A DNA stretch of 64,000 nt from Escherichia coli (GTDB lineage: Bacteria > Pseudomonadota > Gammaproteobacteria > Enterobacterales > Enterobacteriaceae), in the NCBI RefSeq assembly GCF_044647545.1, contig NZ_CP172818.1; one strand, 5' to 3'. Of the stretch, positions 52,459-52,635 are shown one piece after another. Position 1 is the first letter of the stretch. Every line of letters starts with the position of its first letter. The translations under genes were made by a program, and so were the position numbers. Under the pieces are notes generated by a model. That model ran no database searches, was not told where the DNA came from, and worked only from the letters and a program-made list of their open reading frames with translations.

Positions 52459-52635
52459 TGTGATTCAGATCACAAAGATTCAACAAACTAACAAAACAAA
52501 AATGTGACATTACTCACATTTAAATGCCATTTTTAGCGAAAATCGCCGCCTTGTTGCTTTTTTACACAAGAGTTTTGTGATGCACATCACGTCAATTACC
52601 TCTCTACCCCCTATATTTATGTGATTCATATCACA
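52459..52635. promoter_or_regulatory. mtlA promoter region with four CRP-like palindromes (TGTGA-N6-TCACA)
   Basis: tgtgattcagatcaca (52459-52474), tgtgacattactcaca (52503-52518), tgtgatgcacatcac (52576-52590), tgtgattcatatcaca (52620-52635). Confidence 0.65.

What the first reader, a model, noticed from the sequence alone, without database searches (positions are those of the whole stretch)
52459..52635. Array of four near-perfect CRP palindromes upstream of mtlA
Four TGTGA-N6-TCACA sites occur within 180 bp. This is an unusually dense array of catabolite-activator sites, consistent with known complex regulation of the mtl operon.
Basis: partly seen in the sequence, partly recalled or inferred. 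Interest (0 to 1): 0.3.

Follow-up and report, generated by a model that had tools for sequence, protein, structure and literature searches.

The report
Known CRP-site array of mtlA promoter
The four palindromes are real and are four of the five long-known binding sites for the catabolite regulator CRP in front of the E. coli mannitol operon; their fixed 44-base spacing was recently shown to let the repressor MtlR dock onto DNA-bound CRP, so the finding is correct but already explained.

Summary
Observation confirmed. TGTGA-N6-TCACA occurs at 52459, 52503 and 52620 (perfect) and at 52576 (one mismatch). That is four of the six sites with at most one mismatch in the 64-kb window, all within 177 bp (Poisson P about 2e-11).

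The DNA is the E. coli yibI/mtlA intergenic region, present in 5404 of 5426 complete genomes.

With the transcription start at 52686, the four centres fall at -219.5, -175.5, -102.5 and -58.5. These are the published sites CRP2 to CRP5 (Ramseier and Saier 1995; Lee et al. 2026).

The spacing 43/44/73/44 bp is invariant across E. coli and 12 Enterobacteriaceae sequences. The consensus pentamers are 97% conserved, against 58% for the N6 spacers.

[quoted passage not shown] They also show that MtlR, which has no DNA-binding domain, represses by bridging two CRP dimers bound 43-46 bp apart.

In a truncated scan of about 100,000 species, 14 of 15 perfect CRP pairs spaced exactly 44 bp lay just upstream of an mtlA homologue.

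Verdict: correct, ordinary, already known. The small residue is an invariant 73-bp linker with conserved sequence blocks that nobody has explained.

The parts
52416..52431 (.). CRP1: weak fifth CRP site, CATGC-TGCAGA-TCACA, 7 of 10 consensus bases, centre -262.5.
   Evidence: Position and mismatch count. Lee et al. 2026 place CRP1 at -262.5 with 7 of 10 conserved bases, poorly occupied and dispensable. Only its right half is conserved across genera. It is lost to an IS21 insertion in strain GPEC1054.
52459..52474 (.). CRP2: perfect site TGTGA-TTCAGA-TCACA, centre -219.5.
   Evidence: Core positions conserved in 12 Enterobacteriaceae sequences. Published as essential for activation and as the hub for MtlR recruitment with CRP3.
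52503..52518 (.). CRP3: perfect site TGTGA-CATTAC-TCACA with AAA/TTT flanks (17 of 22 to the 22-bp consensus), centre -175.5, 44 bp from CRP2.
   Evidence: Conservation. Published: mutation gives only a slight loss of expression.
52576..52591 (.). CRP4: TGTGA-TGCACA-TCACG (1 mismatch), centre -102.5, 73 bp from CRP3.
   Evidence: The two differences from K-12 both lie in the N6 spacer. Published as essential.
52620..52635 (.). CRP5: perfect site TGTGA-TTCATA-TCACA, centre -58.5, 44 bp from CRP4. The promoter-proximal, class-I-like site.
   Evidence: Published as essential and as half of the CRP4-5 pair that recruits MtlR.
52519..52575 (.). 57-bp linker between CRP3 and CRP4 (73 bp centre to centre, about 6.95 helical turns). 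It contains the conserved block TTGTTGCTTTTTTACAC at 52551-52567.
   Evidence: The length is invariant in 12 Enterobacteriaceae sequences and 74 bp in Brenneria. The block is near-invariant at a fixed position in 11 of 12 sequences. Its function is not known. MtlR does not bind the 73-bp pair.
52651..52656 (+). -35 hexamer TGGACA of mtlAp.
   Evidence: Inferred from the published site centres and transcription start. CTGGACAG is invariant across 12 genera/strains.
52658..52671 (-). Candidate Cra (FruR) operator ACTGAATCGGTTAA, lying in the spacer between the -35 and -10 elements.
   Evidence: Exact match to RSTGAAWCSNTHHW, a consensus recalled from memory. There are 3 matches in the window against 0.57 expected. 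Cra is reported to repress mtl. The site assignment itself is an inference.
52671..52679 (+). Extended -10 element TGcCAGATT. The hexamer CAGATT matches TATAAT at only 3 of 6 positions.
   Evidence: GTGCCAGATT is invariant or nearly so across genera. It lies 17 bp from the -35 hexamer and 7 nt before the inferred transcription start. The generic sigma-70 scan misses it, as expected for an activator-dependent promoter.
52686..52686 (+). Inferred mtlA transcription start (+1), giving a 93-nt 5' UTR.
   Evidence: This is the only position that puts all five site centres on the published values. There is no indel relative to K-12 between CRP1 and the ATG. It was not mapped independently here.
52779..56522 (+). 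The regulated operon mtlA (52779-54692), mtlD (54787-55935) and mtlR (55935-56522).
   Evidence: MtlR is identical to the K-12 protein and has R167 and L178, the residues reported to contact CRP. MtlA keeps C384 and H554.

Best explanation
This is the control region of the E. coli mannitol operon (mtlADR). Five cAMP-CRP binding sites (CRP1 to CRP5) lie upstream of a weak sigma-70 promoter with an extended -10 element.

When cAMP is high, CRP dimers occupy CRP2 to CRP5. CRP5, at -58.5, recruits RNA polymerase in a class-I-like way. The upstream sites are needed architecturally, making this a class III promoter.

The same array is also the operator for MtlR. MtlR has no DNA-binding domain. An MtlR dimer bridges two CRP dimers whose sites are 43-46 bp apart, which here means CRP2-3 and CRP4-5, both 44 bp. 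This masks the surfaces of CRP that activate RNA polymerase.

Mannitol transport dephosphorylates EII-Mtl (MtlA). [quoted passage not shown] Dephosphorylated HPr, produced in the presence of glucose, competes MtlR off MtlA and restores repression.

Shown here: the presence, significance, positions, spacing and conservation of the sites, and the identity of MtlR with the K-12 protein. Taken from the literature: CRP binding, the requirement for each site, and MtlR docking.
For: Sites and statistics.

Locus identity: 100% match to E. coli chromosomes between yibI and mtlA. The 301-bp array region is present in 5404 of 5426 complete genomes, with no net indel in any sampled row.

Agreement with the literature: the site centres coincide exactly with the published -262.5, -219.5, -175.5, -102.5 and -58.5, and with the published spacings 43/44/73/44. 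The count of 7 of 10 bases for CRP1 and 10 of 10 for CRP2 and CRP3 also matches the paper.

Comparison with K-12: all five differences inside the sites fall in the N6 spacers, and none falls in the 50 consensus positions (Fisher P = 0.006).

Cross-genus footprint: in 12 Enterobacteriaceae sequences, CRP2-5 core positions are 97% conserved (36 of 40 columns invariant), against 58% for N6 and 66% for inter-site DNA. The spacing is invariant.

Spacing across species: in a scan of about 100,000 species for pairs of perfect CRP sites 34-64 bp apart (truncated at 120 stretches), 15 pairs were spaced 44 bp and 14 of those lie immediately upstream of an mtlA homologue. The only pair at another spacing next to mtlA is a 40-bp pair in Actinobacillus (L047), whose promoter also carries a 44-bp pair.

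Proteins: MtlR in the window is identical to K-12 MtlR and keeps R167 and L178.

Literature for the mechanism: PMC13421365 and PMC5320558.
Against: No binding experiment can be run here, and the original 1995 footprint paper and Figge et al. 1994 are not held.

The transcription start was placed by fitting the published centres, not mapped independently.

The MtlR-on-CRP model rests on a single 2026 study, with EMSA, mutants and an AlphaFold3 model but no solved complex. The same laboratory reported in 2017 that it could not detect an MtlR-CRP interaction. The 2026 paper explains this by the need for DNA-bound, correctly spaced CRP.

This strain's CRP3, CRP4 and CRP5 differ from K-12 in their N6 spacers, which can modulate affinity.

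No curated CRP weight matrix was available, so the scan used consensus mismatches only.
Confidence: 0.9

Rival explanations
1. The array is only a multi-site CRP activation module (a class III promoter). MtlR represses by some other route, for example through an unidentified DNA-binding partner, and the 44-bp spacing serves activation geometry rather than MtlR docking.
For: In 2017 the same group found no MtlR-CRP interaction and proposed an unknown DNA-binding partner. The upstream sites CRP2 to CRP4 are themselves required for activation. So the conserved spacing seen could reflect activation alone.
Against: The 2026 study reports supershifts that appear only with two CRP dimers 43-46 bp apart. 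It converted malK (34 to 44 bp) and the CRP3-4 pair (73 to 44 bp) into MtlR binders. MtlR R167E and L178A lose repression in vivo. The 44-bp pair of perfect sites is almost exclusive to mtlA promoters across taxa.
Confidence: 0.06
2. The cluster is a chance accumulation of palindromes in AT-rich intergenic DNA, or the product of a recent tandem duplication or mobile repeat, with no regulatory meaning.
For: The intergenic region is AT-rich (42% GC). Units spaced 44/73/44 could look like a 117-bp duplication.
Against: Shuffles of the window or of the region alone never approach four sites. The two 28-bp spacers share only 7 of 28 bases, which is chance level, and repeat similarity stops at the CRP sites. 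The cores are conserved while the spacers drift across 12 genera/strains. Experimental literature also argues against it.
Confidence: 0.01
3. An additional role, not exclusive of the best explanation: the upstream part of the array (CRP1 to CRP3) also controls the divergent yibIH transcription unit, making this a bidirectional CRP-controlled region like malEp-malKp.
For: yibI is divergently transcribed, with its start codon at 52243, 180 bp from the centre of CRP1. The malE-malK precedent is cited.
Against: No yibI promoter was mapped here. The DNA upstream of CRP2 is poorly conserved across genera. In strain GPEC1054 an IS21 separates yibI and CRP1 from the array without disturbing CRP2 to CRP5. 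No paper I found mentions CRP control of yibIH.
Confidence: 0.1

Closest known systems
E. coli K-12 mtlADR control region with sites CRP1 to CRP5 (Ramseier and Saier 1995; Lee et al., Nucleic Acids Res 2026, PMC13421365)
   Same: It is the orthologous locus, between yibI and mtlA. The five sites, all 50 consensus positions, the spacings 43/44/73/44, the -35 element, the extended -10 element and the MtlR protein are all the same.
   Different: This strain is a different allele, about 96-97% identical in the array. It has single-base changes in the N6 spacers of CRP1, CRP3, CRP4 (two changes) and CRP5, and a few changes in inter-site DNA. It also lacks the REP insertion between mtlA and mtlD.
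Vibrio cholerae mtlA promoter (five CRP sites; Zhou et al. 2013, as cited in PMC6597380)
   Same: Five verified CRP sites are essential for mtlA activation. Adjacent pairs are spaced 43-44 bp, and MtlR forms the ternary complex.
   Different: It additionally carries the antisense sRNA MtlS, which overlaps the 5' UTR and the last CRP site. No Rfam family matched in the E. coli region. The V. cholerae MtlR-EII-Mtl sequestration axis is reported lost.
malEp-malKp divergent region of E. coli (multiple adjacent CRP sites)
   Same: It is a dense array of CRP sites in one intergenic region that acts architecturally, as a class III promoter does.
   Different: The CRP sites there are 34 bp apart. MtlR does not bind unless the spacing is engineered to 44 bp. 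Activation there also needs MalT.
CytR-CRP repression complexes (deoP2 type)
   Same: It works alike: a repressor contacts two DNA-bound CRP dimers and blocks their activating function, which is anti-activation.
   Different: CytR has its own LacI-type DNA-binding domain and its own operator between CRP sites roughly 52-53 bp apart (my own knowledge). MtlR has no DNA-binding domain, and the selective feature is the 43-46 bp spacing alone.

Membership tests
cAMP-CRP (CAP) binding site | Two inverted pentamers TGTGA and TCACA separated by 6 bp. | tested here: met
   Three sites match 10 of 10 bases, one matches 9 of 10 and CRP1 matches 7 of 10.
cAMP-CRP (CAP) binding site | Occurrence above chance, in a promoter region rather than inside a gene. 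| tested here: met
   Four sites lie in 177 bp of intergenic DNA, against 0.005 expected. They lie 144-320 bp upstream of the mtlA start codon.
cAMP-CRP (CAP) binding site | The contacted pentamers are under selective constraint while the central spacer is free to vary. | tested here: met
   Core positions are 97% conserved against 58% for N6 across 12 Enterobacteriaceae sequences. Against K-12 there are 0 differences in 50 core positions and 5 in 30 spacer positions.
   No curated CRP matrix was available offline. I used consensus mismatches and identity to the 22-bp consensus instead (13-17 of 22; a lac site sequence recalled from memory scores 15 of 22).
cAMP-CRP (CAP) binding site | Physical binding by cAMP-CRP. 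| not testable with these tools
   Literature only. Five sites are reported bound in K-12: Ramseier and Saier 1995, cited, and the EMSAs with site-substitution probes. The core positions are identical in this strain.
E. coli mtlA promoter array CRP1 to CRP5 | Located between yibI and mtlA with site centres at -262.5, -219.5, -175.5, -102.5 and -58.5. | tested here: met
   against the published positions. The transcription start was placed by fit and is supported by invariant -35 and extended -10 elements at the correct distances.
CRP-anchored MtlR operator | Two adjacent CRP sites 43-46 bp apart, centre to centre. | tested here: met
   CRP1-2 are 43 bp apart, CRP2-3 44 bp and CRP4-5 44 bp. CRP3-4 are 73 bp apart and are not a docking pair. 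No other pair of CRP-like sites (up to 2 mismatches) in the window is 43-46 bp apart (my reading of the list).
CRP-anchored MtlR operator | A cognate MtlR with the CRP-contact residues R167 and L178 is encoded in the operon. | tested here: met
   MtlR (55935-56522) is identical to K-12 MtlR, with R at 167 and L at 178.
CRP-anchored MtlR operator | Formation of an MtlR-CRP-DNA ternary complex and spacing-dependent repression. | not testable with these tools
   Published EMSA and in vivo data only.
CytR-CRP nucleoprotein repression complex | A repressor with its own DNA-binding domain and operator between the CRP sites. | tested here: not met
   MtlR is reported to lack any DNA-binding domain. 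The spacers between the sites share no sequence, 7 of 28 bases. The two systems work alike, but this one is not a member.

The most novel reading that the evidence does not exclude
The array has a third architectural element that published work does not explain. The CRP3-CRP4 distance is fixed at 73 bp, about 7 helical turns, in every Enterobacteriaceae sequence examined (74 bp in Brenneria). The linker carries a positionally fixed conserved block, TTGTTnnTTTTTTTACAC (window 52551-52568). A second conserved block, ACCCCCT (52606-52612), lies in the CRP4-CRP5 spacer. MtlR does not bind the 73-bp pair, and spacer sequence is reported to be irrelevant for MtlR docking. So these constraints may mark a further bound factor (Fis, IHF or H-NS-like, or an RNA polymerase alpha-CTD contact), or an intrinsic bend that sets the phase between the two CRP-MtlR modules. 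Either could underlie the unexplained need for the far-upstream sites in activation.
Probability: 0.3. Interest if true: 0.35.

Novelty: already known. Interest (0 to 1): 0.12.

Why it matters
The feature is a textbook-grade example of dense transcription-factor site architecture. Site spacing, not sequence, gives a repressor without a DNA-binding domain its promoter specificity. Because this was already published for the orthologous K-12 sequence, the finding adds no new biology.

What this check contributes is modest:
- An independent confirmation from sequence alone that the 43/44/73/44 geometry and the pentamers are under strong purifying selection across E. coli and other Enterobacteriaceae.
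- Evidence that perfect CRP pairs 44 bp apart are almost exclusive to mtlA promoters, in a partial scan of about 100,000 species.
- The observation that the 73-bp linker and two conserved blocks remain unexplained.

Tried and rejected
- **Rfam scan** of 52000-57000 at E-value up to 1 found nothing. There is no known RNA element such as the Vibrio MtlS in the leader.
- **Generic sigma-70 and terminator scan** did not find mtlAp, because the -10 hexamer matches only 3 of 6 positions. Its only hits were a minus-strand promoter-like match over the mtlA start codon and a weak terminator-like hairpin, both at chance level.
- **Literature.** Figge et al. 1994 (PMC205122) is not held. No supplementary files of Lee et al. 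2026 are held, so I could not match primer or probe sequences to the sites. Ramseier and Saier 1995 is known only through citations.
- **Duplication origin** of the two 44-bp modules is rejected. The spacers are 7 of 28 identical and repeats are confined to the CRP sites.
- **Chance cluster** is rejected.
- **Species scan.** Its 46-bp peak comes from 23-bp tandem repeats in a Tannerella MAG. I did not identify the 57-58-bp peak seen in several Enterobacterales.
- **Curated PWM scan** could not be run.
- **Cra operator.** The assignment relies on a consensus recalled from memory.

Full report
**Observation.**
- 52459-52474, TGTGATTCAGATCACA, perfect.
- 52503-52518, TGTGACATTACTCACA, perfect.
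- 52576-52591, TGTGATGCACATCACG, one mismatch.
- 52620-52635, TGTGATTCATATCACA, perfect.

At up to one mismatch the 64-kb window holds six sites against 1.76 expected, and four of them lie within 177 bp. In 300 dinucleotide-preserving shuffles of the window, no 180-bp span held more than two such sites. The Poisson probability of four or more in 177 bp is about 2e-11. In 5000 shuffles of the AT-rich intergenic region alone (42% GC), no shuffle gave more than one site.

**Where it is.** The 801 bp around the array match E. coli chromosomes at 100% identity, between the divergent genes yibI and mtlA. 5404 of 5426 complete E. coli genomes carry the region. The downstream genes are mtlA (52779-54692), mtlD and mtlR. 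The rest of the window is the expected chromosomal neighbourhood: xyl, malS, yia, selAB, rhsB and yibHI.

**What it is.** The mtl control region is described in the literature as holding five cAMP-CRP sites. The sources are Ramseier and Saier 1995, cited in PMC5320558, and Lee et al. 2026, PMC13421365. Lee et al. give centres at -262.5, -219.5, -175.5, -102.5 and -58.5, and spacings of 43, 44, 73 and 44 bp.

Placing +1 at 52686 puts them at -219.5, -175.5, -102.5 and -58.5. It also puts a fifth, degenerate site, CATGCTGCAGATCACA at 52416-52431, at -262.5.

CRP1 has 7 of 10 consensus bases, exactly as the paper states. CRP2 and CRP3 have 10 of 10. The repeat finder recovered CRP1 independently as a member of the same 16-nt family.

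The inferred transcription start is consistent with three features: a -35 hexamer TGGACA (52651-52656), a 17-bp spacer, and an extended -10 element TGcCAGATT (52671-52679). All three are invariant or nearly so across genera. The -10 hexamer matches TATAAT at only 3 of 6 positions. That explains why the generic promoter scan misses it and fits a strictly activator-dependent promoter.

**Comparison with K-12.** There is no indel between CRP1 and the mtlA start codon. Five substitutions fall inside the five 16-mers, and all five lie in the uncontacted N6 spacers. None lies in the 50 consensus positions (Fisher P = 0.006). MtlR is identical to the K-12 protein and includes R167 and L178, the residues reported to contact CRP. 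MtlA keeps C384 and H554. The published K-12 results should therefore transfer to this strain.

**Conservation within E. coli.** In a spread sample of 30 records from the 5404 matches, every alignment spans the same number of bases in query and subject, so there is no net indel. Two divergent strains keep 44/73/44 and intact cores. In strain GPEC1054 an IS21 element sits about 16 bp upstream of CRP2. It removes CRP1 and leaves CRP2 to CRP5 untouched. This natural variant fits the report that CRP1 is dispensable.

**Conservation across genera.** I scanned one genome from each of about 100,000 species for two perfect CRP 16-mers 34-64 bp apart, centre to centre.
- Fifteen pairs were spaced exactly 44 bp, and 14 of them lie immediately upstream of an mtlA homologue. 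The taxa are Enterobacter, Superficieibacter, Citrobacter, Klebsiella, Pluralibacter, Pseudescherichia, Brenneria, an Orbaceae, Actinobacillus and a proteobacterial MAG.
- The only pair at another spacing next to mtlA is a 40-bp pair in Actinobacillus, whose promoter also carries a 44-bp pair.
- In the Enterobacteriaceae loci the full pattern 43/44/73/44 recurs without change. Brenneria has 44/74/44.
- An ungapped alignment of 12 sequences shows 97% conservation at CRP2-5 core positions (36 of 40 columns invariant). The figures are 58% for the N6 spacers, 66% for inter-site DNA and 78% for the CRP1 core.

This is a clean phylogenetic footprint of both the pentamers and the geometry.

**How it works (literature, applied to this sequence).**
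- CRP is essential for mtl transcription.
- Chromosomal substitution of CRP2, CRP4 or CRP5 abolishes expression and growth on mannitol. Substitution of CRP3 has a mild effect, and substitution of CRP1 has none.
[quoted passage not shown] It supershifts CRP-DNA only when two CRP dimers are bound 43-46 bp apart, with an optimum at 44-45 bp. It does not bind the 73-bp CRP3-4 pair, or the malK array at 34 bp, unless these are re-spaced to 44 bp.
- MtlR R167E and L178A lose binding and repression. The model places MtlR over the AR2 and AR1 surfaces of CRP, which amounts to anti-activation.
- Induction occurs when dephosphorylated EII-Mtl sequesters MtlR at the membrane. Dephosphorylated HPr competes for the same MtlR surface and restores repression when glucose is present.
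- Cra and Fis are minor repressors. An exact match to the Cra consensus RSTGAAWCSNTHHW, which I recalled from memory, lies on the minus strand at 52658-52671, between the -35 and -10 elements. This is the position expected for an occluding repressor. The assignment is an inference.

**Rival explanations.**
- A chance cluster or a duplicated or mobile repeat is excluded. The shuffles rule out chance. Similarity is confined to the CRP sites, with the spacers 7 of 28 identical. The cross-genus footprint argues the same way.
- A pure activation array in which MtlR acts elsewhere was the position of the same laboratory in 2017. It is contradicted by their 2026 spacing-conversion and point-mutant data. 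Those data come from a single study without a solved complex, so I leave this rival a small probability.
- A possible extra role in controlling the divergent yibIH unit is untested and weakly supported.

**Comparison with known systems.**
- The array is the orthologue of the K-12 mtlADR control region, so it is already known.
- It resembles the V. cholerae mtlA promoter, which has five CRP sites and 43-44 bp pairs. It lacks an MtlS-like RNA.
- It differs from the malE-malK array in spacing, and therefore in MtlR recruitment.
- It works like CytR-CRP anti-activation but is not a member of that family, because MtlR has no DNA-binding domain and no operator of its own.

**What remains unexplained.** The 73-bp CRP3-CRP4 distance, about 6.95 turns, is as invariant as the 44-bp distances, yet it is not an MtlR docking distance. 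The linker carries a positionally fixed conserved block, TTGTTnnTTTTTTTACAC (window 52551-52568). The CRP4-5 spacer carries ACCCCCT (52606-52612). AAAATAT and ACAAA flank CRP2. In Brenneria these blocks are not recognisable although the spacing is kept. Lee et al. leave open how the far-upstream sites activate, mentioning looping and anti-silencing. The conserved linker may bear on that question, but I did not test it further.

**Limits.**
- No curated position-weight matrix was available.
- The original footprint paper is not held.
- The transcription start was fitted to the published centres, not mapped.
- The species scan was truncated.

**Verdict.** Novelty: already known. Interest is low.

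Noticed in passing
window 54693-54786: The mtlA-mtlD intergenic spacer is 94 bp here and 229 bp in K-12 MG1655. K-12 carries about 135 extra bases containing two REP-like palindromes that this strain lacks.
   Followed up: partly
L124 (E. coli GPEC1054, NZ_CM142793.1) 1-300, equivalent to window positions up to about 52442: An IS21-family element (istA) is inserted about 16 bp upstream of CRP2. It removes CRP1 and the yibI side of the intergenic region. CRP2 to CRP5 and the 44/73/44 spacing are intact.
   Followed up: partly
window 52551-52568, 52606-52612, 52451-52457, 52483-52488: Sequence blocks outside the CRP cores are conserved at fixed positions across Enterobacteriaceae genera. They are TTGTTnnTTTTTTTACAC in the 73-bp linker, ACCCCCT in the CRP4-5 spacer, and AAAATAT and ACAAA flanking CRP2. 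They are not recognisable in Brenneria. No function is assigned. The linker block loosely resembles a Fis-type G-(AT-rich)-C 15-mer, by my own reading only.
   Followed up: partly
window 52658-52671 (minus strand): An exact match to the Cra/FruR consensus RSTGAAWCSNTHHW (recalled from memory) lies between the -35 and -10 elements of mtlAp. The other two matches in the window are at 14153 and 51401, against 0.57 expected.
   Followed up: partly
L008 11663-11735, L018 3736-3808, L027 3391-3464, L037 139-212, L088 1400-1472, L100 (pair from 5696): Several Enterobacterales genomes (Enterobacter, Superficieibacter, Yersinia, Citrobacter, Serratia) have a pair of perfect CRP sites 57-58 bp apart. 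This is a second peak in the spacing histogram. In Citrobacter L088 the pair lies next to DNA that matches E. coli atpC, but the pair itself has no E. coli counterpart. I did not identify the regulated gene.
   Followed up: partly
L068, L069, L070 (Tannerella sp. MAG): Tandem arrays with a 23-bp period contain TGTGA-N6-TCACA units. They produce the artefactual 46-bp peak in the spacing histogram. Their nature was not examined.
   Followed up: no
window 4184-4199 and 13778-13793: These are the only other CRP-like sites with at most one mismatch in the window. They lie inside the xylA and malS coding regions respectively. Their number fits chance expectation (1.76).
   Followed up: no
window about 40606-50284: A strain-variable Rhs region lies upstream of yibH. 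It holds rhsB, yhhH, yibA, Rhs core fragments, an ISAs1 transposase, and a tlde1-domain gene with an Imm57 immunity gene.
   Followed up: no
window 51881-52345 (minus strand): The mechanical ORF for yibI runs 154 aa from an upstream ATG at 52345. The annotated protein is 120 aa and starts at 52243. The longer reading would extend 100 bp into the intergenic region.
   Followed up: no
L090 3732 (Bacteroidetes MAG): This is the single 44-bp pair of perfect CRP-type palindromes in the sample that is not next to an mtlA homologue. It is probably a chance match in a non-CRP organism.
   Followed up: no
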